Source: Marsupella aquatica
Lineage: Eukaryota > Plantae > Marchantiophyta
DNA length: 64,000 bases
Direction of reading: 5' to 3'
NCBI GenBank assembly: GCA_973895155.1
Contig: OZ316892.1
Span: forward strand, 12,154,238-12,218,237
In this document: in pieces, positions 14,910-58,778 of the stretch
How the letters are laid out: the number at the start of each line of letters is the position of its first letter
Numbering within the stretch: position 1 is the first letter of the stretch
Position numbers and translations under genes: made by a program
The notes under the pieces: generated by a model
The model's input: the letters and a program-made list of their open reading frames with translations, nothing else
What the model was told of the DNA's origin: nothing
Databases searched by the model: none

Positions 14910-15961
14910 TCATTGAATGTGTGTTGCTACAAAACATATTTGAGCAAGTAAGTCTACTTCTTGATCAAACTTTCTATCTCGGTTGCAAGCGTCTTTAGGA
15001 TACAAGTTTCTAAACTTATAAGTAAGGTCCCTAGTTTTTAGGACTTCCCAAACAAATTGTCGCTTATTTTGTAAATATGGGCCGGAATAACCATCTCCAA
15101 GTAGACCTTTAGCAATTGAATTGATGTCACGGTCACTCATATCCTGCACCGGTGGCAAACTTTGCACGGTATGCTTCACTTCCTAGGAAATCTCGTCTGC
15201 TGAGTGATCAAGGACAGTGAAATTATCGACGATGCCAGCAACGCGGTGCCCCCAGGCTTGAGTGAGTCTTGCAAAGATATCACAATGCCTCCTTTGGGCT
15301 TCACCCTTCTTGTAGGCGGACCATTTTGGGTAGTTAACATTCAGAAAGTGTCTTACATCAAAAGCATTGTGCATTCTTTGAAGAAGTGGAAGCAATATCT
15401 CCATCAGAAAAGTGTCGCCTCCCATGTTGTGAACAAACAGAACTGGAAACAACGTGTTAACATTGGATTCGCGAAACACTTCAGAGGAGAGTCATCGATG
15501 AGAACAGTATTTGTCGAACCATATCTATTGCCAAAGCGATCCCAAACAGTTTGGATTTCCTTGAGAAGTATGTTTGCCTTCCCATCCGTAATATCTGACC
15601 TCAAAAAGCCAATGTCAAACATTTCTTCTTGGGTGAATACAAACTTGAACTGCTTTCGTTCAGCATCGTTGAAAACAAGATCCATCATTTCATTTGTTCT
15701 CGGCCTTCCCGCGCAAGTCCAAATTGCGACATCGTAATACCTGAAAATCACTTGTAAAAATTTGTGAAGACCTGGACGCTCCACATACATAAATGTGTTC
15801 CCGCCCCGTCTTCCCCTGTGAACGCCCCTCACAGATGTGAGCCTCCAAAATGGTCCGGAGCTTTTACTCTTTACGGAATTGAAACAAACCTTATTAAGGT
15901 AAAAAATCAAGAGCTTTCGCTTGATCTCTGAGTGGAGTTTGGGAACAAACTCTGCAAACAT
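14910..15961 (-). pseudogene. FCP1/SCP (NIF)-like HAD phosphatase-domain protein, disrupted
   Basis: KLLIFYLNK (degenerate DLD/DLN motif), ERPGLHKFL, YDVAIWT, LLKEIQTVW, TNTVLIDDSPLKC; frameshift near 15470 and in-frame TAG at 15183-15185. Confidence 0.75.
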
Positions 15962-16062
15962 AAAATAATCAAATCCGGATGGTTAGTCATTGGAACAGTC
16001 TTGACCAAAGACCATTTGAAGTCAAGTCAGTCCTTGAAATCAAATACCCCGTCTATCACCCT

Positions 16063-17447
16063 CTACACGCGTCTCGTGCAGAAATCACTGTATTGCGGAG
16101 GAAAGCTCAATCTATTCCTGAATAGACTTAAAATGATTTCTCTCCTCTCCAAATCTATGTCCTCTCCTGTGAAATCAAAAGGAAGGTCCAAACTACGGTA
16201 GTTTGCAAACTTCATAACTAACACACCACAATTATAGTAATCAGTTTGTCTTGGGATGTCCTTGGGACTATGTTTTGGCCATAGAGTAGCTAAGACTTGC
16301 TTGTGACTTCTGCTTTGAATTTCATCCTCGACATATCTGGCTAAGTTTTCAAGAACCTCTGGCCTATTGTTATGCAGAGAATCGAGATATTCTAAATACT
16401 TGTGTTCCATGTCAATCACAACTAACGCCCAATGATCGCCACCTTCGTGAATGGGGACGAATATTCGATGACAATCAATTAAGAAAAATATTTCAGTCGT
16501 GAAGTCCAAGCCTCCACGGATCGGTAAGAGTAGCCATTCGACGTCAGTGGAGTATAGAACCAACTGTCAAACACATGGCACTTCAGAAGCTCCCTGTCGG
16601 GATGTTCATTCCTCTCCACTATGAGACTTAAGTAGGCACTTAGAATATCGGAACTTATCCAATTTCTAGGACTCAAGCACCTCATCTGTCCACGAGTTAT
16701 TAGGCACCCATTAGTCCTGACTAGAACCGCATCCTGATCCAACAGATCACTGAGGCAATTGTCAATCCTCGTTTTGTTATCCATTGGATCCGGAGACGGG
16801 AGAGGACATTTGTTTATGTTTAGAGCTTTATGACTTGAGACAAGAGAGAGGAAATTGGCACCTGCCTCATTGGTTGCCTCCGCACGATCGACTCGCCTCT
16901 CTGACACCTCAGGAAGATTCACTATGAGAGAAAATGAGTTATCATTCTCTCTTGTTACTTCAGCGCTACGAGAGTCAATATTGTCATCGCATTGAAATTC
17001 AATCGGAGTGTGATCTTTTCCCACAATCCCAATCTCCTCCACAACAATCTCTTTTAAGGATCCACAATCCACCACCCCCTTCTCGACATCCTTGAGTGTA
17101 GTTTTTGCCTCACAATCATCAAAAACTGGGCCACTTTGAAGAACTGAAGCATCAACCAAAAGAGATTGCTCAACACCTCTGTTGCACTCTAACCCTAGAG
17201 GGTCAAATGAATTTTGAGGATCTACACGATACGTGTGTAGGGAGACATCATCCACAACATCTTCCAAAGTTTTGTTGAATGCAATCAACCTCGTGCCCGC
17301 CTGTAAGTTTTCAGAATTATCTGCCAAGTTACCATAACCTCCTTCAGCCATTAGAAGAGGAAATCCTTTGCGACTTGCAATTGGAACGACTGATGGACCA
17401 ATTCTCATCTCCCCAATGGAACTTAGAAACTTTTCCTCCACTTCCAC
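16063..17447 (-). pseudogene. Ulp1/SENP family C48 SUMO protease domain, frameshifted
   Basis: CLSPRNWISSDILSAY, CHVFDSWFY, IFVPIHEGGDHWALVVID, YLDSL, IPRQTDYYNCGV: His, Asp, Gln and Cys catalytic residues present; frameshift near 16500. Confidence 0.9.
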
Positions 17448-17477
17448 CCCGGTGTAATGTAAAACTGTACCGACAAT

Positions 17478-18374
17478 CTAATAATGATGGCCCTCTTTTG
17501 CTCCACTAGCATTGGAGTTTTGAGTCGAACTCCCTTCAAGGCCAGGAGGTTTCCACAATGATTTGGCAAACTGTGCAACTGGAACTAACAATTTAAGATT
17601 CTCTGCATAAGCTGTGAGGTCATAGACATCCTCACGGTCAGAGCAGAATGAAAAACACTCACGCTCAAGCATCAATGCATTCTTCAGTACCTGCCCTCTT
17701 GTGAAAAAATCCAGGACAATTTCCTCCCTCAAAGAAAATGCATGAATAAAACTCTGTAGGATGCGATTGGGCTTAATATTCAATGTGAATGGTCGTCCAG
17801 TCGTCAATTTGAAAGGAACAAGGCCTTCAAGTCGTGAGATCAATGTGTCCCTTTTTTCTCCTGAATATCTTCCTTCAAAATATCGGAATAATCCTCTCGA
17901 CTTGGCTTGATTGTCTCCTCCAGGTCGGACTCCTCCAACACAAAGTGTCCGGTAAAATCCTTGAAATGCTTTTCCCAATCAGGAACCCAATCTTGGGAGA
18001 CGCCAAGGAAAAGAACCATGTCCGCATCGCCTCTCATGTGTTGCGAAGGAGCATTAACCAAATAACTCCTCATGAACAAACCATATTCAAGGTGCGCATT
18101 ATAGTTCTCCGGGAGATCTCGAACAGCTTCAATTATTCTTGCAAGAATAATACCAAGACGAACAAAAAAAACAACTGTTACCAGATCATTTGTTGGGATA
18201 TTCACGACGATCTTCAAGAAGTTCAAGATTTTGGACTGCGTCCAAACCGGTTGTATGGGTCAAATCAACAATCGCTAGAGATGCCAATATTGACTCCTTG
18301 CAGCTAGCCGAATCAAAAGGAGGATCAGCATACGCGAGCAGATTTCCAATATAGAAAACTTGGTAAGGATCCAT
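17478..18374 (-). pseudogene. Degenerate beta-class amino (N6A/N4C) DNA methyltransferase-like domain
   Basis: IKPNRILQSFIHAFSLREEIVLDFFTRGQVLKNALMLERECFSFCSD matches the motif X-I-II pattern KP..L...I...S..GD.VLDPF.G.G....A..L.R..IG.E/D; upstream candidate motif IV LAYADPPF (or LAIVDLTH); split over three frames. Confidence 0.55.
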
Positions 18375-21300
18375 CCTTGCGCGGAGATGGCCGCCAACCT
18401 CTTTTGATGAATATTTCTCAACCTATTTTTCAGTGGCTCCGACATCTCTGCTTTTAATGACACCTTCACAAGGCTCTTGAAATATCCAGTGTCCACCATT
18501 GCACAACAACGATCCAATTCCTCATCTGTGAAATTATATTGTTGAACTACATCACCCCAAGTTGATCCTTGCGAGAAAACCCCTTCGTACTTCTCCCGAT
18601 AAAATCGAAGTATTGCCCCCTTAAGTTTGTCAATATACTTTGCTTTTCTTGCCAATTCTAACATATATGGCGGGAAGATCAGTCAAAGCATGTTTCTTTT
18701 TCATCAAAAGCGCCTCCCCCGAATTCACTTTGTGGAGGATTTCCAAGATGTCGGATTCTACGGCATCCTCAAAAACCCGGAATGTTGTCCTTGTCAACTG
18801 TTTTGCTTCTTTCGATTCTCCAGTCATTTGTCCGGTTGAATCCACAAGATTACCCTTGAGCCAATTATTGCAAACCCCTCTCCATAAAGAGTAGAGCTTC
18901 TGGGGAGCAAACAAAATCCAATTGTACTCGCTGATGCTATTCACCTTTAACGTAACTTTCGCAAGTGTTTCATACTCCTGGGAGGAAAGACCAAACAACT
19001 CAAAGTTAGTCAGCTCAAAGTTTTGAATCCCAAAATACTGGAAAGGCTCTACACGACTCTCGCGTAGAAAGGAGAGAAGGACAGAGTGTCTAAATTTTGT
19101 TCACAACTCTCATGGAGAACCAACCTGAAATTCTGGAGATTTCCAACCCGATGGAAGTGGACGAGCTGGTCGCCCCATATCATTGTATTGCATTCTTGCA
19201 TGTTTCACTTGGTCAATAAATGGAGATGAAAACCAATGTGCCTCCGCCTGAAGGTTGTTCGCGTGTGAAATTTCTACAAGAACTTTCACCGGAGTTGACC
19301 CTTTGAGAATTTGCGCTCGACAATATTTGAGCAAATTGGCTGTTTGCATGAGAGATGGTTGGGTCTTTGAACTTCGGATAATTTTCTTGGCGGCCATTGT
19401 GGAATGTTGACCACTGATGGCAAAGAACTTGAATTCCGCAAGCTTCTTGGTGTCAATATCCTTCCCGCAAGGTCAATTAAACTTGGTACTCCGTCGATCA
19501 TCTTGTAAGGAACCAAATCTGCAGGTAAAGGTTCTTGCCCTGCATTTGTCATCATCAGTTGCACAAGATGGTTGACATGCTCCTCATTGAGGAGTCTCTC
19601 ATTCATCTTTGCAGGAGGGGGATGGATGTTTTCAACCGGGACAGAAAAAAATTTGGATATCCTGAAACAATACCAAGACTTATTCAACTCCAATGTTTTT
19701 TTTGCAATCTCCAGACGAGCACGGTCGACAACTAGCTTTGCGGAACTAGGGTTCTCGTCAATATCCACATCTTCCTGATTTTTCTTTGCTTTCTTGGGCT
19801 TGCGAATGACAGCTTGAGAGGTGATGACAACCTTCTTCTCAATGTTTGGGGCCTTCTTCTCCACGGCTCTGACCATGGGAGCTTTCACAACAATTTCAGC
19901 CAACTCTGTGGTCGTTCCCCTTTGCTTAGGAGGCTTTGCCCTTGATTCCACAACTACTGATTCAACATCAAGTTTTGCTTTTTTCTTTCCCTTTGGTGAA
20001 GGATCTTTTACGACTCCCTTTTGCTTCAGCGTCCTGATCTCTGATTTGACCTTTTCAACTTTCTTCCTGACCGACGCAGATTTCTGTCCAATGCGAGACT
20101 TTTGAGACGGTTTCTCCTCCTGAGGTTTTGTTGGTGAAGCGACTTTCTTTGCATTGCTTGTTTTTCGTATTTTGTCCTTGATTCCTTGCACTTCCTTGAC
20201 AACTTGAATTCTCTTTTGGGAAGACGTTGCCTTTTCTTGTTTATCAACCGGAGATACGTTTTTTCCACCTTTCACTTGAGGCACGACTTCGCGCTGGTCA
20301 GAAACAAGAACTCTCTTTTGAGATGGTTTCTTGTCTTCTTTTTGTTCTTCCCGTTGAACCTTCTTGCGGTCTGTTTTTGCCGCAGGCGACTCATCTGCTT
20401 GATCAACAACTTTCACTCTCTTCCGAGGTAGTTTAGCTTCTTCTTTTATTTTCTCAAAATCAACCTTCTTCCGGCCTAGTTTCCCTGATGGTGATTTTTC
20501 GTCCACTGCTTTTTTCTTCCCACTGGGTGTGGATGACTCTGACACAACACCAGCTTTCCCCTTCCTAGGTGAAACTCCCTTTGAAGTCTTTGCGTATCGC
20601 TTCTCTGTTGGAGGCTTTGCTGGGGGGATGACCTCATTTTGTTGAATTTCCCCACTCTCAACATCATTGTTAATTGGTTCAACTCCACCTTCTAAACTTG
20701 TTGACTCTGACTCATTCTCTGACCCCGCCCGATTCTGAAAAGTCTTCTTGCTCTCTTCTTGGACACTTCCCTCCTCTCCGTCATCCTCATTTTCTGACTC
20801 ATAGACTGATATCGTTTCATGGGACTTTCTCTCTCCAGAGGCGGACAAGTCATCATCGGAGGAGTCATCCTTGTCCTTTCCCTCCCCATTCATCATTGTC
20901 AATCTCTTTTCCACCAGCTTCTTTCTTCCTGGGCGTACCAAGTCTTGGATTACTGGATGCCCTCAAATCCATTCCTCCACCTTTGTCTCACTAAAGTGTT
21001 TCATGAACACAACATTCGGAGAAATAGTCATCTTTCTCCTCCAGTCATCGTCTGGGATCTTCATCCGCATTATATGATCCACCTCTCATGTCCGAGAGAT
21101 AAAATATTTTGACTGCTTCATGACATAGGAGACCCGTCCGAGCCCCATAATTATTTCATCAGCCGTAAAGATCCGATCAGGTGAGAGCCATCTATCCGCC
21201 AAGGATCAAAGAAACCACATGAGACAACATTTGTGTCCTGGTTGTAAGGTTCAAGACAATGTGCTGAGCAAAACCCATGAAGTGGAGCAACCATCTGCTT

Positions 21301-22935: not shown

Positions 22936-23429
22936 CAGCGAGCTGGAAAGCAACATATACCCCTTTCGCGTGGAATACTGTTGAACAATGATTGCGGTTG
23001 CTACCCGGCCGCCAAACCTGACACTCGGGATCCTGGACGTGTCACTAACATGGCAAACCACCACCCGCCGCCAAACCAATCTGCATTTATGGAAACGACT
23101 GCTCACCACACACCACGCCGCCACAAAAAAGTACTACACGACAATCTGGTAGAGTTGAATGTCTGAAATTCTTGCACCCCCACTCACTATATAACATGAC
23201 AGACCACTTTGTGCAAGTTATTTTTTGAGACCTGACTCATTCGTGCCTTCAGTCCGAGGTGGGACTGTCATTAAAGCGTGCTCTGTTGTTTCAGGTACTG
23301 CATCGGTACAGTTTCTCGTACAATTTTTCTCCTATCATTTTCAATTTTGTTTTAGTGATTGTGTCAGTATGTGAATGCATGTGCTTGAGTCTTTCCCATT
23401 GGGATGTGGTTGAACTGTATATTCAGTAG

Positions 23430-23765
23430 TAATCTCTATTGAATTTTGGACTTTTGATTGTCTACACGAGCCTCGTGTTGTTCCCTTCGTCTATGCAAAT
23501 ACAACGTTCAATAGGAAGTTCCTATAAGAAGAATACTCATTTCAAAATATCCATCTCTATATAGAAGGTTTAAGAGCCTACTAGTTGGATTCAGTCGTAA
23601 ACTGTATTGAATATTGGACTTTGGATTGTCTAACAAGCCTCGTGTTGTTCCCCTTGTCTATCCAAATACAACGTTCAATAGAAAGTTCCTCTAAGAAGAA
23701 TACTCATTTCAAAATATGCATCTCTATATGGAAGGTTTAAGAGCCTACTAGTGTGGATTCAGTCG
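23430..23765. repeat. 168-bp tandem repeat carrying the palindrome; third copy resumes at 33204
   Basis: TATTGAAT.TTGGACTTT.GATTGTCTA at ~23437, ~23605 and ~33211. Confidence 0.85.
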
Positions 23766-25063
23766 TGTGACGGGGCCAATGGTCCCAAGGAATGATTTTA
23801 AAGGGTAGTAGTGACGCATACATGTAAATACATAGATTTGTGTCAAGTTTTTTTTCTTTTGTTCTCTTACAACCTTGCCAACAATAGTTTATGCGCAATA
23901 TAGATGAGATAAGTAGTGATATTTTTTTCTAGGTCCTCTTAATTTTAGTTATCGGGCCAAGCCTCAGAGTTGGGGGGTTGGCCGCTGGCCGGTCCGGGCC
24001 AAGGCATGTGCCCTATTGCCATTCCATGCTGGAGCCGGGGGATTATCTAGCTTTACATTTTTATCACCAGCCCTAGTATTTGCGCATGGGGGCCGGTCGA
24101 AGGAGTTAGTGGCCAAGCACCGCATGAGGTGCCCCGGCCAGCAACATGGACCCTAGCACAAATTAGCCTCGGCCGAAAAGAGCTGGCCATAAGGGCAAGA
24201 AGTCCCGGAGAAGGGAGCCGGCCAAGAAGGAGGCCCGGCCTTAGCTTATAGGGGCACTAAGGGGGGATTAAATTCCCCTTTCCAAGAAAGCCAGCCAAGG
24301 GCAAGAGGCCTGGGAGAAGGGAGCCGGCCAGGAAGAGCAGGAGTGGAGCCGGCCCAGGAAGGCGCAAGAAAGAGGGCACGAGGAAGGAGCTGGCCAAAAG
24401 GTGGCCCGGGCTTAGGAGGAGGGAGCATGATCATGGGGATTAAATCCCCCTTCCAAGGGGAGGCCTCGGCCATAGGGGTGCGAGCCAAAGGGGAGCCGGC
24501 CAAGGGAAGGTGGCCCGGGAGGAGGGAGACGGCCAGGAGGCTTCGTGAACGAAGGGCAGGTGGCGCCAGAGGGAGCGAGAAAAGGTGAGGGGGGAGGGGA
24601 GTAATAAACCCCCCACACCTGGAGGAGGAGAAGGTACATAGGGGGCAGTTAAGGGCCCTTGGATCCCAGGGGGATCCCCAAACCCGGGAGCATAGGGCAC
24701 CGGGCCCCAAAGTGGTGGAGGGATTGGCCATTAAGGCGCCCATAGGGACGTGCGCCAGAGGGAGCGAGAGAGGGCGTGATGGGGGGAGGGGGATAATAAA
24801 TGCCCCAACCCTAGGGAGCAGGTCCGTGGGGGAGGGGGGCAGTTAAGGTCCCAAGGGATCCCCCAAATTGGGCAGAGCAGGTGCGTAAGGAGGAATGGGG
24901 AGGGGGATTAAAATCCCCCAAACCTGGGGGAGAAGGTTCATGGGGGAGGGAGGCAGTTAAGGTCCCTGGATCCCAGGGGATTCCCCCTTTGGGCAGAGCA
25001 GGTATGCAGGGTAGGAAGGGAGGCCTTGGCCATTAGGAGCGAAACTTGGGGGGAGGAGCGGCC

Positions 25064-25070
25064 TATATAA
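25064..25070 (+). promoter_or_regulatory. Putative TATA box for the long ORF
   Basis: CCTATATAAG after a G-rich repeated region and before a pyrimidine-rich leader. Confidence 0.55.
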
Positions 25071-25233
25071 GTGCTCATTTCCAACTCTTTTTTCCCAGTT
25101 TTTTTTGCGCTCCTCACTCATTGCCGAAACTCTTTTCTCTCCTCATCGATCAACCTTCCCCTTTGTGTCATGTACTACCTCTATTTTCCTTGAGTGATTC
25201 TGAGAGCGGCCATGGAGTGAGCTGGAGTGGGGA

Positions 25234-28200
25234 TTGACAAGGACTTGGAGAGGGAACCTGATTTATTTTATCGTGGTTGGGTACGGGGGCCGCACGAGGC
25301 CAAGCTCTAGGAATTGCGAAACGGGAATCGGTCCCCAGTTGTGCTCTTCAGGGGGAGTGGGGTGGATGAGATCCCCAGACAGACCTGAGTTCACCAACGC
25401 TCGCATTAGGAGGTACAAGGCAGCCTACCGGGAGTACATCACTTTGCAGCTAGCCCGAGAAGAGGAAGAGAAATTGGCAACCAGGGCCACAATGTCAGGG
25501 ACCAATGAAGCACCCATGTCACAAAGGACTCAATGATGTTCATACCCCAAGACATTGGCCAAGCTTCTAGACGATAGCCGTGAATTGTTTGAATCCACCG
25601 TGATTATCAATTTAATGCGAGTGGACATGCGTGCTCCAATGGATAGGCATTAAAAGATTGAGGATGGGATGGACTTACGGGATGATGGATTGTACTTTGC
25701 ATGCATCAAGCGCACCCTCCCTCATGACGAATTGACTCGGTTGCTGATGTTGCACAACCAGGACCTGACATTCTACCCCATGGAGCCACCAGGGACACTC
25801 ACATTGGAAGAGCTGGCCATGTATGTGAAGGAGGCTACCTCTGTGGTACACATTTCCCTTGCATCCTTCAAGGACCCAACGCTCAGGGGTTTTGTTGGAA
25901 AGGTCCATGTGATGCCTAGACAGGAATCACTCGGCCAGTTAAGTGGGTAAAGCAGGAAGGCACCCTAGGAACACCTTAGTATAGGGACAAAACAAGGAAA
26001 ATATAAACCATTAGGGGCAACCATGGAACCCGGGCCGAGGCCGGAGGTAAGGACGCTGAGGGTGAAAACTCGATTAGGGTTAGGGCGCGTTAAGCGTCGG
26101 CGGCTAGGAAGGATCAACGGGAAGAAGGACCGGCAGAGGAGAGGGGTAAGGAGTGCTTGCAGGAGATGGTGGCTCATTTGCAAGCACGAACTAGACAGAC
26201 GACTACGGGAGGCCAACTACTGTCAGCTGCTTAGGCAAGCACTCGGGGAGAGAGTAGATACTGACGATCGACCTAAGGAGGGTATGAGCAACGTCAATCA
26301 AGCGGCACATTTCTGGGGATGCCTGTTCGAACGGGCAACTGAGTACATCAAGACTTACGAGGACGAGGAATCAGAAAGGGCAGCTCGAGAACGGTAGGAG
26401 CTCGCTCGATTGTGGGAGCTGCAGAAGACGGTTTTCTTAGGAGGCGAACTCATCAAGGACGAGTTCCTATGGACGCCTACTTCCAATCAACTCGACGATC
26501 TTCTATTTTGCAAAGACAGCGTCGTCGGCATCCGAGAGGCCATCAAGAACTGCAACGACATACACTGGGAATTAAAGGGTAGCACGGAAAGGTGGACCCA
26601 GGCAACGGTGCTAGGAGAAACCTCCACGGCAGCAGAGATGAAGAGGAAGGGAGCTGTCAACGATGAAGCCACCCCGGCAAAAAGAACGAGGTCGGCGGCA
26701 CCAAAGAAGCCAGCCGAGCAGCAGAGCAGGAGGCAGGGAGAAGCCGAAGAGGAGGAGGTCGATCCCATCAAGGCCATTCCAACCAGGGATGACACCTGGA
26801 AGGGCTGGGCGGCAACCCTACCGGTGGAGGTGCAACTACATTTTGCACGGGAGGAGGATGCATGCTTCACGGCCATGCAGACCAAGAAGTACCAAGGCTT
26901 CATGGCCGGATCCAGCTTAGAGGCCTTTGTAAGATTACCATGGCTGAAGCCGGAGGTACCGGAGTCAGACCTATTAGAATTCGTGGGGTCATGGGAACCC
27001 GAGACCAATTGCACGAGGATATATGGGAAGGATTTCTATCTTACTCCCAAGGTAATTGCCGAAGTGTTTGGCTTGCCGATAGGCAATAAGACCAAAGTTG
27101 ATACCAGGAAGACCTTGCCTGACAAGGAGTTCCGGTCGTTCCCCGGGCCATCAACGAAGAATGGCTTCTTCCGGAACACCTGCACCAACCCGCACATAGG
27201 AGAGATGATCGACTTCTTGCGGGTGACCATGCATTGTAACTTGCCGAGGGCAGAGATCGGCAAGGCACAGGTCTATCTGGCAGAAAGGCCAGACCCAAGC
27301 CGGGACTACAATGGGTACCTCCTCAACCAATTGAAGAAGATCTTAAAGGAGGAGCAACAGGTAATCGGCATGGGGAGCGTGTCGCGGCTTGGCTATCACA
27401 TGCCGCTGTTGTGCCGGTATGCCAGAGGTCAGACTTTTGCCCCGGTACTTCCCCTGCAGGTAAGGGCACCCAAGGAAGCTCCAATGCCGAGGCCGTTGGC
27501 TGAGAAGCCTCAACCACCTGTTAGCCCTACGATTGAGCAGGTGTTTAGGCCCAGGAAGGAGGACTTGCCGATGCAGCAACCAGGCATGCAGAGTCTGCTG
27601 AAACTACTGGAGAACGAAAAGAAATCGGCATCGGCAACAACAACGGCAACGGCAACAATGGAGGACACTACTACAGAGGTAGGCCTACACCGGCTCACAA
27701 GAGAAAACCCCTTTGCTGGAGACAAGGAGAGAATCAGGCCGGAATCCAAGCCCGGTGTTCGAATGTATGTGGGAATCTCAAGCTCCGAATCTGAGGCAGA
27801 ATTGCCTGAAGCTCCTACCGACGAAGAGGAGAGGGAGAAGCCGGACGGCCAAGAAGTAGAGGAGGCAGTGGAGGACTGCAGCCATGATAATTCCGGCTAT
27901 GGGTCGGACCATCACGTCCCAGGAGTAAGGACCTGTGGCCGGTTTGTCCCCACACTTCCAAGGGTAGTGCGAGGGGACCCCAACCAGCAGAGTAGCCCTG
28001 AGTCTCCCCCACCAGATGTTGCTCCCCCGAGCTTCGACGGCATAAAACAGACGGTGCAGGAATTTCAGGAGCGAATCAAGCAGGAAGAGGAGGCAGCCCT
28101 GGCTAGGGAAAAGGATTTACCAGGAGGAGATTGGCCGGAGGACATCAGGCGGCTAGCCAAAAAAGGAAGCAAACCTCTAGCCACGATTGAAGAGATCCGC

Positions 28201-29613
28201 AAGACGGCTTGGGAGCAGAGGCCGCGATGGGCGATGCCGATTACTTCTACTTACTCCACCTACGCTAAGAATAGAGCCATGGAGTATGGTGAGATGTTTG
28301 GGGAACTTGCGCTCGGCATCTTTGGAGAGGAGTTGGAGGTAGGACCCTTTTTCCATAGGGAGCAGTTGGAGAAGCACCAATTAGAAGAAGCGGTGGCTTT
28401 AGAGAGAAGCAAGAAGGACGAGGTCATTCGGCAGCTTAGGAGGATGGAAGCCGAGATTGAAGATCTAAGGGCGGCCAAGAAAGCCCAAGATGAACTACGG
28501 ATTAAACGACATGAGCTGAACATCATGCAGGGGCAGTTGGACACCGCGCAGGCTGATAATCAGAATATCAAGGATAAACTGACTCAGACGCAGGGAGAGT
28601 TGGCCGACACGATCAAAGAGAGGGAGAAGTGGAAGCAAGAGCTGAAGAATACAGAGGAGGCCCACATAACAGCCAACAGCCGGGCCATGGCGGAGACCCA
28701 AAGAAAGGAATGGGCGTTGAAGGGGGAGCTCGAGAAAATCCGCGGAGCCCTTGAGCAGAAGGAGGCCGAGTTAGGGAAATCCTATCAAGGGATTATGGCG
28801 CTGCAGTAGGAGCTTGCGTCCCTGACGGCCAGCTTCAAGGCCGACCTAAGGGAGAAGGACGAGATGCTCGAACAGACTTACGCCAAGATGAACCAGATGG
28901 AGTCTGTCATCATTGCGGAGCTCGACAAGGAGCTAAGAGCAACCCAGGAGGAGAGGACTACCTTGAAACAAGAACGGGAGGAAGCCCAGAAGGAACTAGA
29001 GGAGGCACGCAAGGACCTGGATGAGACCCAGGAGGAGTTGGAGGAAATCACGAGGAAGATGGAGAACCTCCAGCGGCGGGCCGACAACCAAACGGAGCGG
29101 CTGAAGAAACAAGCCGCAGTATTTAAGTGCTTGTCTTCATCAGGCCCAACTCCAATTGGGCCACCTGCACCAGTGCCGGAAGTAAGTGGGAAGGGGAAGG
29201 GACCAGCTGCCGAACCAGAAAAGAAGAAGAAGCGGAAACCTTCAGGGTCAAGGAGTAATCCGACTCCACAAGCCGTGGTGACCAAGGAGGTAGAACTAGC
29301 ACCATCCTCCGACATGAATACGGCAATAGATCCCGCTATCATCACAGGTGGGGGTGGTGCGGCCCAAGCCGAACTACTCAGTAATGAGGCCGGTATCCCA
29401 GATCCGCCTCTTGAGCAGGCCAGGGAGACCCAAGCCGTGGCTGAGGCCGTAACCGGTTCCCGAGCCGATGCCGACGCCGATGGTGGACCCAGTCAGGCCG
29501 ATGGAGAGTTGACTCAATCAAGGGCAGGTAATCTGTCAGAGAATGAACCTACGGCAGTGGCTGAGGAGGAAGCGTTGGGGGCGTCCATTAAGGATCCACC
29601 ACCGGTGTCGTGA
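25234..29613 (+). pseudogene. ~1460-codon ancestral ORF: plant-retroelement accessory-type domain plus long coiled coil
   Basis: Five track ORFs share one frame, separated only by stops at 25534, 25651, 25948, 25966, 26395, 28807; LLEFVGSW..TRIYGKDFYLTPKVIAEVFGLP resembles Athila/Tat extra-ORF (Transposase_32/PMD-like) domains. Confidence 0.7.
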
Positions 29614-30510
29614 CGGTGCAAGGGCGCCATTCCTTTTAGGGAGGGCGGACGTGGAGGGAGGAGGCGTGAGTGGGCAGGGCGGGCGCTGATCTCCAAGTTT
29701 AGGATTAGGATCAGGACCAGGAGCGGCCCTGACACTTAGCTTAGTGGGATTGCGGTTCCACTGGTAGGAGCAACACTTGTGCTCCTGCCTTGCTGTACAT
29801 AGGTAGATTCGGGCAAGTAGATTACTGTTAAGTAGATTAGGCTTACGATGCAAAGAATGGCGGATCCACTACCAGGATAAGTACCTGGGCAGCGGGGAGC
29901 TCAGGGCCTCTTCTTTAGCAAGTTTTTAGTTTGCACCAGCCGGGCTGGGATCAAGTAGTACGAGAAGCTCTCGGTTAGTCATACAGTGACCCTTGTGTAT
30001 ATTCATGTTTCCTCATGCCTAAGAGCTGAATAGAGTTGGCCTCACGGCTTAGTTCGCAGAACTTGTGTATGAGATGTACTGTTTGTATGGCAAGTGCATG
30101 GTATGACTCAGTCAGAATGAGTCATTTTGCTATTTGTGTATCGCATTAACTTGTGTGAAGAGTGCCCACATCAACCAAAAGGAAGGAAAGTAAGCAGGGG
30201 AGTGAGAGTTGGATGTGTCGAGCTGAGAGAGGTCTTAGCGGCTTAACCAAGCCTATTGGGGATCATTCCGGCGGCGGAATCCAAACATACCTAACAAGAC
30301 GGAGGGGAAGACAGGGGAAGGCCTAGATTAGGCCGGCTACGTATCTCATGACCCGATGAAGGATCTGTCCAGTATATGTGTGTAAAATGTTAATAGTAGT
30401 AGTAGAAGGTTAGCAGCGTCCCATGCCGCTAAGCCGCGGAAACGGCCTCGCCAAGCGCGAAACCTGCGGGAATCGGCTTGAGCTGGGGGGTTTCTTGGGT
30501 TTAGGGAGCC

Positions 30511-31884
30511 ATGGGACGCACCACAGTCCATCAACGGATACTCAGTTGGGTGCAATCAAGTATAATTATAGGGGAACACTTGGCCATTGCATTGGACATC
30601 AAGCAGCACCCGGAGCACACATACGGATGGTGGGTGTTTGGTTTGAGGAAAACGCTGACCGCAGATCCCAAAGGCCACAAGCCTGGAGGAATCATCCATT
30701 TTCTTGGGTCATTTCTCTTGAACAGGATGGAGGGGCTCATCTCAGTTCCCGAACCAGAGGAAGGAGTATTGCCCTCCTTCCCAACCGTCTTACGAAAGAT
30801 TGCCACCACCGTCGTGCAGAATTTGACCACAGATTCCACCAAGGAGCTGGCCACTGATGTCGTGGTGGAGGGGGCACCGGACGAAGAGGAGGATATGGAT
30901 GAAGAGTTTACCATGTAGTGGTTGAAGTCCTTGATTGGTAATCCCGAGGAGCCCATTGTGTATGACATTCCAGAGGTATACTTGGCGGAATTGCAAGAGT
31001 ACCGTGATGCTATTAACGAGGGCTGGCAATTGTGCAAAGCCATGAAGTGGGCTCTGAGTAGGGCCAATGCTAAGGTGGCCACCTTGCAAGTTGGGCACAA
31101 GGCGCTGAAGGAGGTCATACTGTCCAAGGAGGAGACTATTCAAGAGAGGAGTAGGTTGTTGAAGCAAGCCTATGACCAAGTTGGCCACTTGCAAGGAGCC
31201 CTGTCCACCAAGGCCAAGGAGGCCGAGGAAGCAGTTGCTTTGAGGAAGGAGCTGGTAACGATGAAGCAAGCCGAAAAGGGCGTGGATGCCCTCAAAAAGC
31301 AGATTTCAAAGTTGCGTGGCCAGGTGAGTGCTTATGAGACAAGGGCCAAGAGAGCCGACGCCCTGAGTCTAGGGAAGAGGAAGAAGCCCTGTCCACCCGG
31401 TGTTACTCCCGTTGCTTTGCCAGAGATGTTGGCCAAGGCCATTGATGCAGTGGTCATCGAAGTAACCAAGACTTATGGGCCAATGTTGGAAGCGGCCAAA
31501 AAGGACAAGGAGAAGTGCAAGAGCCTGGAGAATAAGTTGAAGTCAACCCGCAAAGCACTAAGGAACGCAACGTCTGGCCAGGGAACCACGGGTATGCCAC
31601 CTAGGTCGGTGACCCCGGGAACTCCCATGGCCATGGGCCAAGTCTTGCCACTGGAATTGCAGGGTGATGAGGAGACAACGTTGTGGAAGGACACCATCGG
31701 TCATGGATACATTAGGGCTTGGCAGGCTTTGGCGGCATTACAGAAGCAAGGAACCTCGGGCCAAACGTTGGGAAGGACCACCCCGGGGAGGAGTAGGGGA
31801 GGAGGTGTTGCATCTACCCAGGGGGGCAGTGATGACTCTCGGGGATGGAGCCTTGGCACCGTAAGTGAGTCCGAGGAGGATTAG
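30511..31884 (+). pseudogene. Second coiled-coil ORF of the 9.4-kb insertion
   Basis: ORFs 30511-30918 and 30922-31884 are in frame, separated by one TAG; heptad-rich. Confidence 0.6.
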
Positions 31885-33410
31885 TAGTAGTACGGATGTT
31901 GACCGTACAGAGATTGGTTTTGGGCACATGTCCAACTGGCCAACTCATGGGCTTATTGGAAGGAGCTTGTCGAGCTGAATCTAACAATGTAAGACACGCC
32001 TCAAACGGAGTTAAAATGAGAGAGATACGGACCGGAGCATTTTGGTGAAGAATTAGGGTCCAATGTCGTACGGACGTCCGTACAACCTTCAGGAGAGTGA
32101 CCCGGCCAAGTCAGGGCATGTGGCCAGGGTACCTCAATTTGATGTCGTGATGGGAGGCCGGGACCGTACGGACTATTTGGACGCGGCGGTGACCAGGGTA
32201 AAGTTTGGGACTTGGCAAGCCATATCTCAGGCGTCTGATGTCCATTTTGGGAGCCGTTTTCAGGGTTACGATCAGGATGGCCGTGGCTACTCATAAAATT
32301 TCTCAGGACCAGATTTAGATCAACTTCTACTTTTGGCTATTTCCATGGTCACTCAGTGGGAGGCGTTGGCCACACTGTAGTAGGAAGGTAGGCCATGGCC
32401 TACATAGGACATTAGTCTAGTTTTGTTTAGTTGGTGTGATGGCCGATGAAGGCACCGTTGGCCTCACTTAAGTAGCAATAGGATTAGGGGTGCATGTGTG
32501 TGCCGCATGTGTAGAAAACTTTTAGGTTAGCGTCGTCGCCAGTGGATGGCGGCCAGCCAGGGCAGTGGCCGCCGCCACACCCTAGGGCTTGTGTGTTTAC
32601 ACATTGTTGTTTTCAGTATTTAACCAGCAGCCCCCGGTAGGAGCAGGGGGGAACTCAATCTAGTGTTGTTTTTGTGAGGATTAGCCTTCAACAAGAGTAG
32701 GGAATTGATCTGGAGTATTGAGGTGGAGAGGGCTCATTGTCCCGTGAGGTAGGAGTTGTGTAGACGATAGGAGACCGGGTTGCCCATGCAATGTGCTACC
32801 TTGGCCACTAATAGATATGGATTTGATTGAATTCTCATGACTTCTTGTGTGTTATTCCCTCTCTTGGTTGCACGATTGTGTTCTTCCCCTAGTATGAGTA
32901 TTTAGAGAAACTTACATGGCTTGGTCAACCCTGTGAGTGGGAGAGTGGTGACAGCACTTTGCCAAAGGCCAGGAGGAGTAGAAGCAAGGTAGTCCACGGG
33001 ACTTGATCAAAAGCAGATTACGTATAGTCGGTAGACTTGATCAAAAAATACATTTCCGGGAGCGGAAACAAATCTACTCATCCTTAGTATGAAATTGATC
33101 CATATAACGTCCCTCCACGTCCCCGTCATACGATACAAACAATTTTTAGTGGAACCATGTGGTGTTTGTTGTGTTAGTCATTTGATAAGCAAGTGACAAG
33201 TCGTAATCTCTATTGAATATTGGACTTTTGATTGTCTACACGAGTCTCGTGTTTTCTATTTAATGAAAGAACCTTCAACTTTGTAGATGACTGTCTCCAT
33301 TGCTTGTTCTGTGATATTTGCTTAGATTAGAGTTAGAGATTTTCACACGAGCCTCGTGTAGGCTGTTTTAAAAGATGTTTTTGTTGCAAATATTTTTCTT
33401 CAGATCCAGA

Positions 33411-36946: not shown

Positions 36947-37290
36947 TGTTGAGCATAGACGACATTCGCAACGGCAAGCCCATGAACCATCCAACGCACA
37001 ATAGTCGACGCAGAGAGATACGTGGTTCACCTCCACATGAGGCTATGTCCACGGGAACACACAAGAGCTTTACTGCACTCTAGGCCGACCGGCCATACCA
37101 AGCATCCACAGCACAAGCTCTTCCTATCTCTCAACTAGCTCCGTAACAATGAGCCTAAGTTCCACTAGGGTCTGGCATCAGCCCTGGCTATATGCACAAC
37201 AGCACTACCGCTAACATTAGCTAAGTCCTAACCCGAGTTAGCCTAACTCTAGTTAGCTCATGAGTCACAAGACTAGAGCAATATCTAACA
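36947..37290 (-). repeat. 3' LTR
   Basis: TGTTGAGCATAG...TATCTAACA; 5 mismatches to 43454-43797 by my count. Confidence 0.97.
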
Positions 37291-37303
37291 AACTCCCCCT
37301 TGA
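37291..37303 (-). other. Polypurine tract
   Basis: TCAAGGGGGAGTT on the minus strand, adjacent to the 3' LTR. Confidence 0.9.
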
Positions 37304-37497
37304 CTCTTGTCTTGGGGACTAGACTAAATGCTACCATATGGAATCCTCAGCGGGAAGTTCTAGACAATCACCAAACCAGGTCTCCCCCTAAAAACCACAA
37401 GGGTTAACTAAGGGTTAACTAGAACTAAGCCGTAGCCTAACAGGAATGAGTAATCCATATACAAAGAGTCACACATTGCTAAATAACTCTACTTGCA

Positions 37498-40400
37498 CTA
37501 CAACTGCAAAACCTGCAAAGTAGCACGGTGTCTTGAGAAACTCTCCAAAGGAATCACTTTGGTAAAGGCATCAGCAGGATTGAGCTTTCCATCAATCTTG
37601 ACTAGCTCAAAAGTTTTATCAGACACTGCTTGCCTGATAAAATGGTACCTGATATCAATGTGCTTCACCCTGCTATCCATCACCTGGTTAGCAGCCAAGT
37701 GAAGAGCACTCTGACTATCACAGTTTAGAGTCATTTTTCCATGCTCTAAACCCATCTCCGCGATCAACTTATCCAACCAAATTGCTTCCTTTGTAGCTTC
37801 TGCTGCTGCAACATACTCTGCTTCTGTAGTAGACTGAGATATGCACTTCTGCAAGGTAGATTTCCAACTGATACATCCTCCTCCAAGAGTGTATACAAAC
37901 CCAGTTGTAGATCTCCTTGTATCCAGATAGCTTCCATAGTCAGAATCTACATAGCCAACTAACGTTCTATTTGATCTGTTATTAAATAGTAATCCATAGT
38001 CCTGTGTTCCCTTCACATACCTGAGAATCCATTTCACAGCTTCCCAATGTACCTTCCCTGGATTTGACATGAATCTGCTAACCTTGCCCATCGCTAGGGC
38101 CAAGTCAGGCCTAGTACAAGTCATCAAATACATCAGACTGCCTACTGCCTTCTCATAAGGAATCTTAGCCATTAGACCTTTCTCCACAACATCCGTAGGA
38201 GAGAAAGCCGATGATAACTTGAAATGTGAAGCTAAAGGAATACTCACTGGCTTACAGCTCTCCATGTTGAATCGTGCAAGTACTTTCCTCGCATACTGGC
38301 CTTGACTCAAGCACAACTGTCCAGTCTCAGAGTTCCTAAAAATCTCCATCCCTAAGATCCTCTTGGCCTTACCAAGATCCTTCATCTTGAATTCAACGCT
38401 CAATTTCGCCTTGAGACTGTCAACCTCAGATTGATCTTTAGCCACAATTAGCATGTCATCCACATAGATCACCAGAATGATGAAACCAAATACATCATTC
38501 TTGACTGATTTTGTATACACACAAGGATCATACACCATCCTTGTAAAACCTTGAGCAAGCATGAAATCATCAAACCGCTTGTTCCACTGTCTGGGAGACT
38601 GCTTCAATCCATACAAGGATTTGAGCAATCTGCAAACTAAGTTCTCTTGGCCCTTCTTCATAAAGCCTAGTGGCTGTCTCATGAAGATCATCTCTTCCAA
38701 GTTGCCATAGAGAAAAGCAGTAACAACATCCACCTGATCCATCACCAGATTAAAAAACACAACAAGCTGACACAAGATCCGAATTGTGGAATACTTAGCC
38801 ACCGGTACGTGAAAAGACCTCATTGTAATCCACTCCTTTCTCCTGAGTGAACCCCTTGGCAACAAGCCTTGCCTTGTAGATCTTATCTCCACCCTCTGAA
38901 GGACTGTCCTTCAACTTGTAAATCCACTTGCTGTCCACCACTTGTTGACCTCTTGGAAGCTCCACCAGCTCCCATGTCTTGTTGTCACTCAAAGATTGCA
39001 ATTCCCTCTACATTGCTGCATTCCACTCATGCTTCTGCTCTGAAGCACAAGCCTCACTATACGAAGAAGGCTCTCTTTCTTCCAAGATCAAAGCCATATC
39101 ATCTTCATCAGGTGCAATGTCAATATCATCTAGCTTAGATGAGTCTGCCCATTGACCATACCTGGTAGGAGCTCTAGTAGAACGATTGGAAGTTCTTCTA
39201 GTAGATGACTCTAGCTGATCTGCTGCTGCTGCTGGCTGAATTTGAGGTACCCCAGCAACAATCTGCTCCTCTTGTTCCATCATAGGAACCAGCTCCAAGC
39301 CCGGAGCTTCTCCATCTCTCCTGTCATGAACTGCATCATGACTAATCTCCCCCTCAACCTGGTCCGGGATGGGAGATTTCCCCTTGTCAGTATGGGAGTC
39401 CTGAGAACTCTCCCCCTCCTTTGATGATCTGGATTCATTAAAGGACACATCTCTACTGACAATTAGTTTACAGGTTACTGGATCCCATAACCTATAACCC
39501 TTAACACCTTTCTGATAGCCAAGGAAAATGCACTTCTTGGACTTGGACTCCAGCTTGGATCGAAGTTGGGAAGGTGTAAGCACATAAGCATCACATCCAA
39601 AAATCCTCAGATGTGAGTAATCTGCTGGACGCCCGTACCTCATTTCAAATGGCGTCTTGAATCCAATAGAACTGGATGGAGAAAAATTTACCAAATAAGC
39701 TGCAGTGTTGACAGCTTCAGCCCAAAACTCATGTGGTAAGCATGATTGACTCAACATACTCCTCGAGCGATCCAATAGTGTTCGGTTGAGTCTCTCAGAA
39801 ACACCATTCTGTTGAGGAGTATAGCTTGTTGTGAGATGGCGGGTAATCCCCTGCTCCTTACAATACGTTCCAAATTCACCGGAACTGTATTCACCGCCGT
39901 TATCCAATCGAAGATATCTCACCTTATTACCAGTCTGATTTTCAACTTGGGCTTTCCACTCCTTAAAAGTGGCAAAAACATCAGACTTATTGTGTAGAAA
40001 GTATATCCACACATACCTTGAGTAATTGTCAATGAACGTGACATAGTATAACCGTCCAGAATGTGAGGGAGTAGGGGCGGGACCCCACACATCACTATGT
40101 ACATACTCAAGTACCTCCTTGCTGGTGTGAGTTCCAACTCCGAAGGGTTTCCTGTGCTGCTTCCCTAGCACACAGTGCTCACAAAATTCTAACTTACAAG
40201 ATTGCAAATTAGAAAGTAATCCTTTCTTCTGAAGAATAACCAAACCTTTTTCACTCATGTGGCCCAAACGGAAGTGCCACAGCCGGGCCGTCTCCTCATG
40301 AGATAAGGTTACATTGGCTTCATCATAGACTACACTGCCCTCCATAACGTATAGATTGCAATGTCTCTTTCCCTTCAATACAACTTTAGTACCAGTTGAA

Positions 40401-41773
40401 ACCTGAAGGACACCATTAGCAGAACTCCACTGATGGCCATTTGCCTCTAAAACTCCAAGTGAAATGAGATTTTTCATCATGTTGGGAATATGTCTCACAT
40501 TCCTCAATGTTCTCACAGCACCATCAAACATCTGAAATCTTACAGATCCAAGTCCAACAACTTGACATGGGATTCCATTTCCCATCAACACTGACCCGTT
40601 GGAAACCGTGTAAGAACTGAAATAATCTCTTCTAGAGCAAATGTGAAAAGTACATGCACTATCTAGAATCCAGTCATCACTACCTGGATTTGACACTACG
40701 TTGAGAGCATAACCTTGACATCACAATATGTCATCATCATCGAGTAAATCTACCTCATGCGAGCTCGATGCCGCGTTAGCAGAGGCAGTAGGGACCTTTA
40801 CTCGACAATCCCTTTTCATGTGGCCAGGCTTGCCACAATTCCAACATGCAAAAGGCTTTCTCTCTTGCGATTTCCCTCTGGATTTAGATCTCCCCCGTGA
40901 TGTAGATCTAAACCTATTTTGTCTATTCGTGCGTTGCGCTGCTCTTCCCCATTCACATTGAGCGCAGTGCCAGAAGAAGATGATGTTTGTGATTGACCCA
41001 ACTTCTTCTGAGCATCATCAGACAGTAATGAGCTCACCACCTCATTATACGAAATGGACTTCAGATCTCTGTACAAGAGCACCTATTTCAAGCCCTGATA
41101 AGACGACGGTAAGGAGCTTAGCAGAAGCAAGGCCTTATCCTCATCTTCAACTCCTTTTTCTAAGTTTGACAAATCCACCGCTAGACTGTCAAACTCATCC
41201 AGGTGATCCTGTATCTTGCTCCCTTCCTTGAGCCTGCGGCTCATCAAGAGAGACTTCTTGTACAGCCGGTCTGACGCATCTTCCCGGTAGTATTTCTCTC
41301 TTAGAGCCTTGAACAGTGACGTGCAATTCGCATAATCATCCAATTGCTTGATGATGTGCGGCTTGAGATATAGCATCACTGCATTGACAGCAATCACCTG
41401 CTCCTGTCTCCACTGCTTCTCTGAGATCTCCTCTTCTCCATCATACTGCTCTCGCGTAGAGAGCAGATGAGCTAAGCCCATGGCCCGAAGGACACCCTTC
41501 ACTTGCTTCTCCCACAGCAAGTAATCAGTACGACCATCGTACTTCTCCACCTCAAACTCACTCCTCCAAATCTAGCCATCTCCCTCTTCTTTCCAACTAC
41601 CGACAGCTCTGGTAGTAACACAGCTTCCTCCACTGCACGTCGCACCGGTGATCATATCGGTGTCACTAGTTCCTCCTCAAACGGTAGCAGCTCCTCAGAC
41701 TCTCCGTCTGACCGTCGCGATCCTGAAGCTCCACCGATGCCAATTCTTCCAGTATCCTCCGAGTCACTCATAT
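37498..41773 (-). pseudogene. Copia gag-pol polyprotein with stops and frameshifts
   Basis: gag EKYDGRTDY; PR WILDSACTFH; IN HSDVWGP..YYVTFIDNYSR..QNGVSERLNRT; RT LLKSLYGLKQSPR, YVDDML; RH SQSTTEAEY, KHIDIRYHF. In-frame TAGs at 41083 and 39008; frameshifts near 40950 and 38810. Confidence 0.95.
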
Positions 41774-43439: not shown

Positions 43440-43451
43440 GCTCTGATACCA
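43440..43451 (-). other. Primer binding site (initiator tRNA-Met)
   Basis: TGGTATCAGAGC on the minus strand, 2 nt inside the 5' LTR. Confidence 0.95.
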
Positions 43452-43453
43452 CT

Positions 43454-43797
43454 TGTTGAGCATAGACGACATTCGCAACGGCAAGCCCATGAACCATCCA
43501 ACGCACAATAGTCGACACAGAGAGATACGTGGTTCACCTCCACATGAGGCTACGTCCACGGGAACACACAAGAGCTTTACTGCACTCTAGGCCGACCGGC
43601 CATACCAAGCATCCACAGCACAAGCTCTTCCTATCTCTCAACTAGCTCCGTAACAATGAGCCTAAGTTCCACCAGGGTCTGGCATCAGCCCTGGCTATAT
43701 GCACAACAGCACTACCGCTAACATTAGCTAAGTCCTAACCCGAGTTAGCCTAACTATAGTTAGGTCATGAGTCACAAGACTAGAGCAATATCTAACA
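43454..43797 (-). repeat. 5' LTR
   Basis: Direct repeat of 36947-37290. Confidence 0.97.
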
Positions 43798-58638: not shown

Positions 58639-58778
58639 GTAGATTCACAGTCACACCCCACGCAGCAGGAAACAACAATCACTTCAACTGCGACCAACCA
58701 TGACAAGATGAGTTAGTTCAAGGATCACATTTATTACAAAATTGTGATTTATACAAAAATATGAGGGACTCCTACTCC

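What the first reader, a model, noticed from the sequence alone, without database searches (positions are those of the whole stretch)
23766..33198. 9.4-kb integrase-type insertion with no LTR pair and no gag-pol: giant gene-containing solo LTR?
TG...CA ends and a 5-bp TSD indicate LTR-integrase insertion, yet I find no terminal direct repeats, PBS/PPT or RT. It holds a TATA promoter and two long accessory ORFs. If it is a solo LTR, it is unusually long and carries genes inside the LTR; otherwise it is a distinct non-autonomous unit.
Basis: partly seen in the sequence, partly recalled or inferred. Interest (0 to 1): 0.7.

Follow-up and report, generated by a model that had tools for sequence, protein, structure and literature searches.

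The report
Two nested gene-bearing solo-LTR-like units
The 9.4-kb insert is two elements, an abundant 4.6-kb mobile element sitting inside a rarer 4.8-kb one; each is likely a leftover end-repeat (solo LTR) of a plant retrotransposon and each holds a long reading frame, which would be unusual because the plant papers read here place such extra genes between the end-repeats.

Summary
The outer ends are real: TG 23766, CA 33198, duplicated AGTCG, and the empty site is seen in 4 of 4 runs. But this is not one 9.4-kb element. A second unit, 25908-30525 (4,618 bp, TG..CA, duplicated GTCCA), is nested inside. It is 69-348 times deeper in public runs, its empty site is seen in 3 of 7 runs, and dozens of contigs leave its right end into mixed flanks. 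The outer unit alone is 4,810 bp. Neither unit has terminal repeats or gag-pol. The inner unit is 78% one 1,196-codon frame (2 stops; other frames 24-60), with a helical domain shared with liverwort proteins, a likely coiled coil, and a strong terminal hairpin. The outer unit has its own TATA-led frame, split in phase by the nest. Best reading (0.65): solo LTRs of two retrotransposon families whose roughly 5-kb LTRs carry an accessory gene. No full-length parent, primer site or polypurine tract was seen, so LTR identity is inferred. The 9.4-kb size is refuted; a gene inside the LTR remains plausible, and five phrase searches found no plant precedent.

The parts
23421..23765 (.). 167-bp tandem repeat into which the outer unit inserted; the interrupted unit resumes at 33199-33253
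   Evidence: empty-site joint 23760->33199 in 4 of 4 runs
23761..23765 (.). outer target-site duplication, left copy (AGTCG)
23766..25907 (+). outer unit, 5' part: starts TGTGAC; GC-rich degenerate repeats 24183-25023; TATATA at 25064; pyrimidine-rich leader
   Evidence: low depth tier
25204..25907 (+). outer ORF, 5' half (first in-frame ATG 25366; stops at 25534 and 25651), cut by the nested insertion
   Evidence: 2 stops in 231 codons; shuffle mean 11.5, minimum 1, so weak on its own
25903..25907 (.). inner target-site duplication, left copy (GTCCA)
   Evidence: joint 25902->30526
25908..30525 (+). inner unit, 4,618 bp, TGTGATGC...GCACCACA (7 of 8 inverted), no terminal direct repeat, very abundant family; likely a solo LTR
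26023..29613 (+). inner ORF, 1,196 codons, stops at 26395 and 28807; 78% of the unit
   Evidence: 2 stops in frame against 24-60 in the other five frames; shuffle mean 50.7, minimum 29 of 2,000
26782..27480 (+). predicted helical domain of about 230 aa, shared with unnamed Logan proteins and two Calypogeia fissa proteins; weak lead to DUF1985/PMD
28423..29100 (+). proline-free, E/K/Q/R/A/L-rich segment of the inner ORF, likely a coiled coil
   Evidence: 64-68% EKQRAL and 0% P in residues 801-1000; sub-cutoff coiled-coil-type Pfam hits
30408..30522 (+). predicted long rod-like hairpin ending 3 nt before the inner unit's terminus
   Evidence: -63.3 kcal/mol, z -4.26, 0 of 200 shuffles as good; the other three termini tested have z -0.25 to +0.46
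30526..30530 (.). inner target-site duplication, right copy (GTCCA)
30531..33198 (+). outer unit, 3' part: ORF 3' half 30532-31884 (one internal stop at 30916, coiled-coil-like), then 1.3 kb non-coding with TATTTAA at 32617 and a T-rich tail ending GTGACA
   Evidence: 1 stop in 450 codons; shuffle mean 21.3, minimum 9
33199..33203 (.). outer target-site duplication, right copy (AGTCG)

Best explanation
The 9.4-kb stretch is two nested insertions (a 4,618-bp unit inside a 4,810-bp unit, each with TG..CA ends and its own 5-bp duplication), and each is likely a solo LTR of a plant retrotransposon family whose roughly 5-kb LTR carries a long accessory gene. Shown: the nesting, the boundaries, the absence of terminal repeats and of gag-pol, the abundance of the inner family, and the long frames. 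Inferred: a full-length parent (LTR, gag-pol, LTR) was integrated by an LTR integrase, first the outer family into the tandem repeat and later the inner family into the outer's ORF. Recombination between each element's two LTRs then removed the internal domain and left one LTR between the original duplications. With the gene inside the LTR, every solo LTR would keep a whole copy of it. The inner protein (basic N-terminus, a PMD/DUF1985-like helical domain as a weak lead, a coiled coil) is predicted to be a nuclear accessory factor, possibly anti-silencing; this step is a guess by analogy. The superfamily (Ty3/gypsy more likely than Ty1/copia) and the orientation of the inner LTR are not established.
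For: Nesting: inner bins are 69-348 times deeper than outer bins by median in 4 of 4 runs. In X2 the depth falls from 661,609 to 664 across 30525. The empty inner site appears in X2 and X3 and as a loose end in X4, that is 3 of 7 runs laid. One X2 contig bridges the filled right junction (record 7). Independent element: 35+14+11 contigs in X2 and 19+4 in X4 leave the right end at 30525-27 into mixed flanks (agreement 0.37-0.57). The ORF is a standing part of the unit: depth across the ORF is as high as at the ends (table 2), and the two ends share no homology (8-nt longest match), so it is not a rare internal region between two LTRs. Frame kept: 2 stops in 1,196 codons; 10 of the 12 indel rows shown lie in the 912-bp 3' non-coding part and 2 in the ORF, one of them a 3-bp in-frame change (table 4). 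The ends resemble Del/Tekay-type ends as printed in PMC3485330 and PMC4029996 (passages), and 5 bp is the commonest LTR duplication (PMC6911290 passage). Established knowledge: LTR retrotransposition needs terminal redundancy, so an integrase-type unit without it is most simply a solo LTR. The outer 3' end is deeper than its 5' end, as a shared U5 with a subfamily-specific U3 would be.
Against: No full-length parent, primer-binding site or polypurine tract was seen. The majority lines behind 30525 do not start with a TGG-type primer site, whereas the copia element in this window has both signals. The inner unit lacks a clear LTR promoter: the only TATA-like word near an end is ATATAA at 26001, 22 nt before the ATG, and there is none on the minus strand. 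The left inner end and both outer ends were not shown to have many different flanks. The indel rows are 12 of 92, chosen by the tool for support, and they cluster, so P = 1e-5 overstates the case. The PMD/DUF1985 link is only an atlas lead under 0.9: no Pfam hit to it for the query or for 18 homologs, and the model is poor (pLDDT 51). The outer ORF halves show no similarity to the inner domain. The runs come from related organisms and are not independent.
Confidence: 0.65

Rival explanations
1. The inner unit (and perhaps the outer) is an LTR-less non-autonomous element, moved as DNA by an integrase-like DDE transposase (Ginger/GingerRoot-like) that recognises short TG..CA ends.
For: A very abundant unit with sharp ends, 7 of 8 inverted terminal bases and no primer site seen. 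Integrase-related DNA transposons exist in a clubmoss (PMC6839031 passages). A terminal hairpin could serve as a cis signal.
Against: GingerRoot has 100-150-bp inverted repeats, a 6-bp duplication and mostly TA..TA ends; Ginger1 and Ginger2 have 4- or 6-bp duplications. Here the duplication is 5 bp and no terminal inverted repeat of 12 nt or more joins the two ends among the 25 longest of 27 pairs shown. No transposase is encoded.
Confidence: 0.15
2. The units are deletion or recombination derivatives of ordinary elements. For the outer: a 5' LTR stub joined to an internal extra ORF and a shorter (about 1.3-kb) 3' LTR, or a chimera of two families, so the ORF is internal as in Ogre, Retand or Retrosat2.
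For: The outer unit's last 1.3 kb looks like a self-contained LTR (TATTTAA at 32617, T-rich tail) and is deeper than its 5' part. Extra ORFs in plant elements are described as internal (PMC7264820 main text; PMC6317226 and PMC3485330 passages).
Against: A stub of the 5' LTR should recur at the start of the 3' LTR, and no such repeat exists in either unit. For the inner unit, depth is even from end to end in 4 of 4 runs (lowest to highest bin within a factor of 3-8), which fits one standing unit rather than a rare chimera.
Confidence: 0.15
3. One 9.4-kb solo LTR with two accessory genes.
For: The outer ends and duplication are real, and the nested form is also present in another run (X2 record 7), so the composite is not an assembly artefact.
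Against: The inner unit has its own TG..CA ends and duplication, is 69-348 times deeper, occurs at many other sites, and outer copies without it exist.
Confidence: 0.02

Closest known systems
Solo LTRs of large-LTR Ty3/gypsy elements (Del/Tekay such as rice Retrosat2; Ogre/Tat non-chromoviruses)
   Same: TG..CA ends, 5-bp duplication, size within the about 5-kb maximum (PMC6317226 passage), and ends like TGTCACACCC..GGGCGTGACA (PMC3485330 passage). Nesting and solo LTRs are common.
   Different: Their extra ORFs (ORF0, PMD, TRP28, env-like) are described between the LTRs. Here a 1,196-codon frame fills 78% of the unit itself. No parent was seen and the lineage is not assigned.
Extra ORFs of plant LTR retrotransposons (PMD in Ogre, TRP28/Smc-like in Retand, Athila ORF-1)
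   Same: A fast-evolving accessory protein with a coiled-coil part; the atlas lists DUF1985 and PMD clusters among the nearest (0.83-0.85).
   Different: No Pfam match; the only named homologs are from a liverwort; it lies inside the putative LTR.
MMTV sag/Naf, an ORF in the U3 of a retroviral LTR
   Same: A protein-coding gene inside the LTR with its own U3 promoter (PMC9412291 passage); the outer unit's layout (TATA, ORF, second TATA-like box, tail) works like this.
   Different: An animal retrovirus. No homology is claimed; the parallel is architectural only.
GingerRoot / Ginger integrase-related DNA transposons
   Same: TG..CA-type ends in some members, known from a non-seed plant, can carry extra sequence (PMC6839031 passages).
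   Different: They have 100-150-bp inverted repeats, a 6-bp (or 4-bp) duplication and a transposase; none is met here.

Membership tests
Solo LTR of an LTR retrotransposon | TG..CA ends with a 4-6-bp target duplication and an empty site elsewhere | tested here: met
   Both units; outer empty site in 4 of 4 runs, inner in 3 of 7
Solo LTR of an LTR retrotransposon | No terminal direct repeat and no gag-pol inside | tested here: met
Solo LTR of an LTR retrotransposon | Same ends at many loci with different flanks | tested here: inconclusive
   Met for the inner right end (60 contigs in X2, 23 in X4); not shown for the inner left end or the outer ends
Solo LTR of an LTR retrotransposon | The same sequence occurs as a direct-repeat pair around gag-pol in a parent element | not testable with these tools
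   No genome held; contigs are short; collection scans found no related locus
Solo LTR of an LTR retrotransposon | Primer-binding site after and polypurine tract before the LTR in parent copies | tested here: inconclusive
   Majority lines behind 30525 show no TGG start; 3 of 4 share TAGAT at +11 to +15, which is a hint only; self-primer motifs not above chance; the left end was not examined
Solo LTR of an LTR retrotransposon | U3-R-U5 layout with a promoter and poly(A) signal | tested here: inconclusive
   Outer: two TATA-like words (25064, 32617). Inner: only ATATAA at 26001. No RNA data.
Ty3/gypsy Del/Tekay lineage | RT/RH/INT phylogeny, chromodomain, tRNA-iMet primer site | not testable with these tools
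   No polyprotein linked to either unit; only a loose resemblance of the ends
Ginger/GingerRoot DNA transposon | Terminal inverted repeats of 100-150 bp (GingerRoot) | tested here: not met
   7 of 8 (inner) and 5 of 8 (outer) inverted bases only
Ginger/GingerRoot DNA transposon | 4- or 6-bp duplication and a DDE transposase | tested here: not met
   5-bp duplications; no DDE hit
PMD (PF10536) / DUF1985 (PF09331) domain | Profile match at or near the curated cutoff | tested here: not met
   No hit at E up to 10 for the domain or at E up to 0.1 for 18 homologs; atlas lead 0.83-0.85 only

The most novel reading that the evidence does not exclude
A plant lineage, likely non-seed, hosts at least two LTR retrotransposon families that have moved their accessory gene into the LTR. 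In one family a 1,196-codon gene fills 78% of a 4.6-kb LTR and is kept in frame across a highly abundant family. Solo-LTR formation, the host's main way of deleting these elements, would then leave intact gene copies all over the genome, able to act in trans (for example against silencing).
Probability: 0.45. Interest if true: 0.68.

Novelty: new variant of a known kind. Interest (0 to 1): 0.48.

Why it matters
Extra ORFs of plant LTR retrotransposons have no known function, and the papers read here describe them as internal. An ORF inside the LTR would be doubled in every full element and would survive solo-LTR formation, which changes how such genes persist and how they could act on the host. 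An abundant family with a compact gene-bearing LTR would make the function of an extra ORF easy to test with RNA data and a reporter. It also matters for annotation: such solo units would be called host coiled-coil genes, as may be the case for the two annotated liverwort homologs. If the parent turns out to have the ORF outside its LTRs, this is ordinary nested transposon debris.

Tried and rejected
No genome is held for the window, so the genome-wide test was not possible. No RNA holder listed. Word-index protein searches found nothing for the inner ORF (one search covered only proteins of 1,379-3,935 aa, so it says little). Collection scans: exact end patterns gave 0 loci in viral contigs and metagenomes. 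Eleven viral loci matched 17-letter end patterns, but none shows more than the pattern (best 32 nt at 87.5%, no tblastx hit), so they were rejected as chance. Protein scans confirmed no locus. The AlphaFold model of the inner domain was poor (pLDDT 51, pTM 0.25); Foldseek against PDB gave nothing at E 0.001 or better, and the PDB sequence search gave nothing better than E 0.73. The atlas gave no usable hit for the outer ORF's 128-aa piece. A common origin of the inner and outer units was rejected: no DNA, tblastx or profile similarity. Short TRIM-like LTRs were rejected (8- and 9-nt best matches). A self-primer was not supported: four short motifs gave chance-level matches. The shared TAGAT behind the inner end (3 of 4 majority lines; X6 lacks it) was considered as a sign of a common internal domain. 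It is kept only as a hint: the runs are of related organisms and may share loci, and the lines at 30526 also resemble each other between X2 and X4. The chance figure ignores both points and the X6 miss. P0009 among the 18 hits is a bacterial-type repeat protein and was left out of the alignment, as were P0005 (N-terminal match only) and P0016. Four look-ups of earlier findings returned nothing. Contig depth was used only as a ratio between parts, not as a copy number.
Full report
Observation. The outer boundary is as described. The sequence reads AGTCG, TGTGAC at 23766, through GTGACA at 33198, then AGTCG. That pattern alone means little: a scan of the window finds 52 TGT..ACA pairs with a 5-bp duplication and at least 6 of 8 inverted bases, a rule the outer unit itself does not pass. 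The boundary is real for other reasons. It cuts a unit of a 167-bp tandem repeat, whose remainder resumes at 33199, and contigs join 23760 to 33199 in 4 of 4 public runs laid. No terminal direct repeat exists. None of the 9 frames of the unit among the 32 window frames scanned hit RT, gag or integrase. The window is repeat-rich plant DNA, with copia and CACTA domains elsewhere. No genome is held for it.

The unit is two elements. Laying contigs of four runs on 23680-33290 shows a block from about 25.9 to 30.5 kb whose median depth is 348, 235, 118 and 69 times that of the rest. A joint from 25902 to 30526 that skips 4,623 bases appears in X2 and X3, and not in X1 or X5. At those places the window reads GTCCA, TGTGATGC at 25908, through GCACCACA at 30525, then GTCCA. 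A closer lay of 30400-30640 shows depth in X2 falling from 661,609 to 664 across 30525. It shows 35, 14 and 11 contigs in X2 and 19 and 4 in X4 leaving at 30525-30527 into mixed flanks (agreement 0.37-0.57). An X4 contig carries the outer element's upstream letters in front of 30526 (the empty site), and an X2 contig bridges the filled junction. So a 4,618-bp abundant element inserted into a 4,810-bp rarer one. The two share no DNA or protein similarity. The runs are coded, come from related organisms and are not independent. Contig depth was used only as a ratio.

The inner unit. A frame from the ATG at 26023 to 29613 has 1,196 codons and 2 stops, against 24-60 stops in the other five frames and at least 29 in 2,000 shuffles. 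It fills 78% of the unit. Depth over the ORF is as high as at the ends, and the first and last 400 bp share only an 8-nt match, so the ORF is a standing part of the repeated unit and is not flanked by an LTR pair. Of the 12 indel rows shown (92 exist), 10 lie in the 912-bp 3' non-coding part and 2 in the ORF, one of them a 3-bp change. This points to selection on the frame, but the rows are tool-selected and clustered, so the P of 1e-5 overstates it. A 361-aa piece finds 18 proteins at E up to 0.001, the best at 41% identity and E 1e-48. Of 17 looked up, 14 are unnamed Logan proteins, one is in NCBI/ENA without a name, and two are unnamed products of the liverwort Calypogeia fissa at 24% and 31% identity. 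Pfam gives no family for this domain and no plant transposon family for the 18 hits. The atlas lists DUF1985 and PMD clusters at 0.83-0.85, a lead only. The model is mostly helical but unreliable (pLDDT 51), and has no PDB match. Residues 801-1000 are proline-free and 64-68% E/K/Q/R/A/L, a likely coiled coil. The last 120 nt fold into one long hairpin (z -4.26, 0 of 200 shuffles), while the other three termini do not.

The outer unit. GC-rich degenerate repeats at 24183-25023 lead to TATATA at 25064 and a pyrimidine-rich leader. A frame opens at 25204, is cut by the nest and continues in the same phase at 30532-31884, since 4,623 is a multiple of three. The halves have 2 stops in 231 codons and 1 in 450. 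After it come 1.3 kb of non-coding DNA with TATTTAA at 32617 and a T-rich tail. Depth rises towards the 3' end, and some copies lack about 550 bp of the 5' repeats, as expected of a conserved U5 and a variable U3.

How it most likely works. [quoted passage not shown] I infer that the outer family inserted first, the inner family then inserted into its ORF, and both were reduced to solo LTRs. The ORFs would then lie inside the LTRs. For the outer unit the layout fits a gene in U3 with its own promoter. For the inner unit neither the promoter nor the orientation is clear: ATATAA at 26001 is only 22 nt before the ATG, and no TATA-like word was found on the minus strand. The parent was not seen. 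Majority lines behind the inner right end do not begin with a TGG-type primer site. Three of four share TAGAT at +11 to +15, which could be an internal domain, a target preference or shared loci. By contrast, the copia element at 36947-43797 has a standard primer site and polypurine tract. A role of the protein as a nuclear accessory or anti-silencing factor is analogy only; PMC5418596 (passages) links PMD to Gypsy elements and calls an anti-silencing role speculation.

Rivals. An LTR-less unit moved by an integrase-like transposase fails the tested features of GingerRoot and Ginger (100-150-bp inverted repeats in GingerRoot, 4- or 6-bp duplication, a transposase; PMC6839031 passages), but a different element of that kind is not excluded (0.15). 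A deletion or chimeric derivative with an internal ORF remains possible, mainly for the outer unit (0.15), although no 5' stub recurs. The single 9.4-kb LTR is refuted.

Comparison with what is known. [quoted passage not shown] Both units fit that size. PMC7264820 (parts 1 and 2 of 3, the whole main text) describes additional ORFs in the internal region. PMC3485330 (passages) puts ORF0 of the long-LTR Retrosat2 upstream of gag-pol. PMC11963269 (passages) puts Retand's between pol and the 3' LTR. PMC4029996 and PMC6911290 (passages) supplied the Del end motifs and the duplication lengths. PMC12885004 and PMC1560396 (passages) added nothing on this point. The architectural precedent is the MMTV LTR's U3 ORF (PMC9412291, passage). 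Five phrase searches found no plant LTR with an ORF inside it. These cover open-access text and exact phrases only; I read no supplements, and the extra-ORF tables of PMC6317226 and the 2011 Genetica survey cited by these papers (not read) could hold such cases.

Verdict. What remains is a pair of nested, ORF-bearing, solo-LTR-like units, one of them a very abundant family that is 78% coding. Solo-LTR identity is inferred (0.65). It is a new variant of a known kind, with interest 0.48, and about 0.68 if a parent with the gene inside both LTRs is found.

Noticed in passing
window 36947-43797 (-): Full-length Ty1/copia element: 345-bp LTRs 98.6% alike, duplication TGCAT, primer site TGGTATCAGAGC, polypurine tract, gag/integrase/RT Pfam hits, and an unusually long GC-rich stretch (about 42136-43452) between the 5' LTR and gag.
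   Followed up: partly
window 54042-62206: CACTA Tnp2 (Transposase_21, DUF4218, DUF4216) with a BRCT-domain ORF (58779-59642) and NSD-like PHD-finger ORFs (60226-60933) beside it; the PHD region is duplicated in inverted orientation at 49281-51426 (84% alike).
   Followed up: no
window 15404-20962 (-): Broken ORFs with Ulp1 protease (Peptidase_C48) and NIF phosphatase-like domains left of the finding, possibly cargo of a large DNA transposon that also holds the 167-bp repeat.
   Followed up: no
window 5495-9984 and 10074-10498: Degenerate tandem array of about 580-bp units and an 83-bp array.
   Followed up: no
window 12576-14133 (-): Copia fragment 71% alike to 40505-42135.
   Followed up: no
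window 30525 -> 29680 and 30526 -> 27974: Joints in X2 in which the inner unit's right end runs into the middle of another copy, likely self-nesting of the abundant family.
   Followed up: no
window 29160: Many family contigs in X1, X2 and X3 carry extra letters here, so the window's inner copy likely has a local deletion or replacement relative to most copies (table 7).
   Followed up: no
window 30526-30545 (flank position in other copies): Majority lines behind the inner right end share TAGAT at +11 to +15 in X2, X4 and X5 but not X6; in X4 and X5 it sits in a short inverted repeat. Unexplained.
   Followed up: partly
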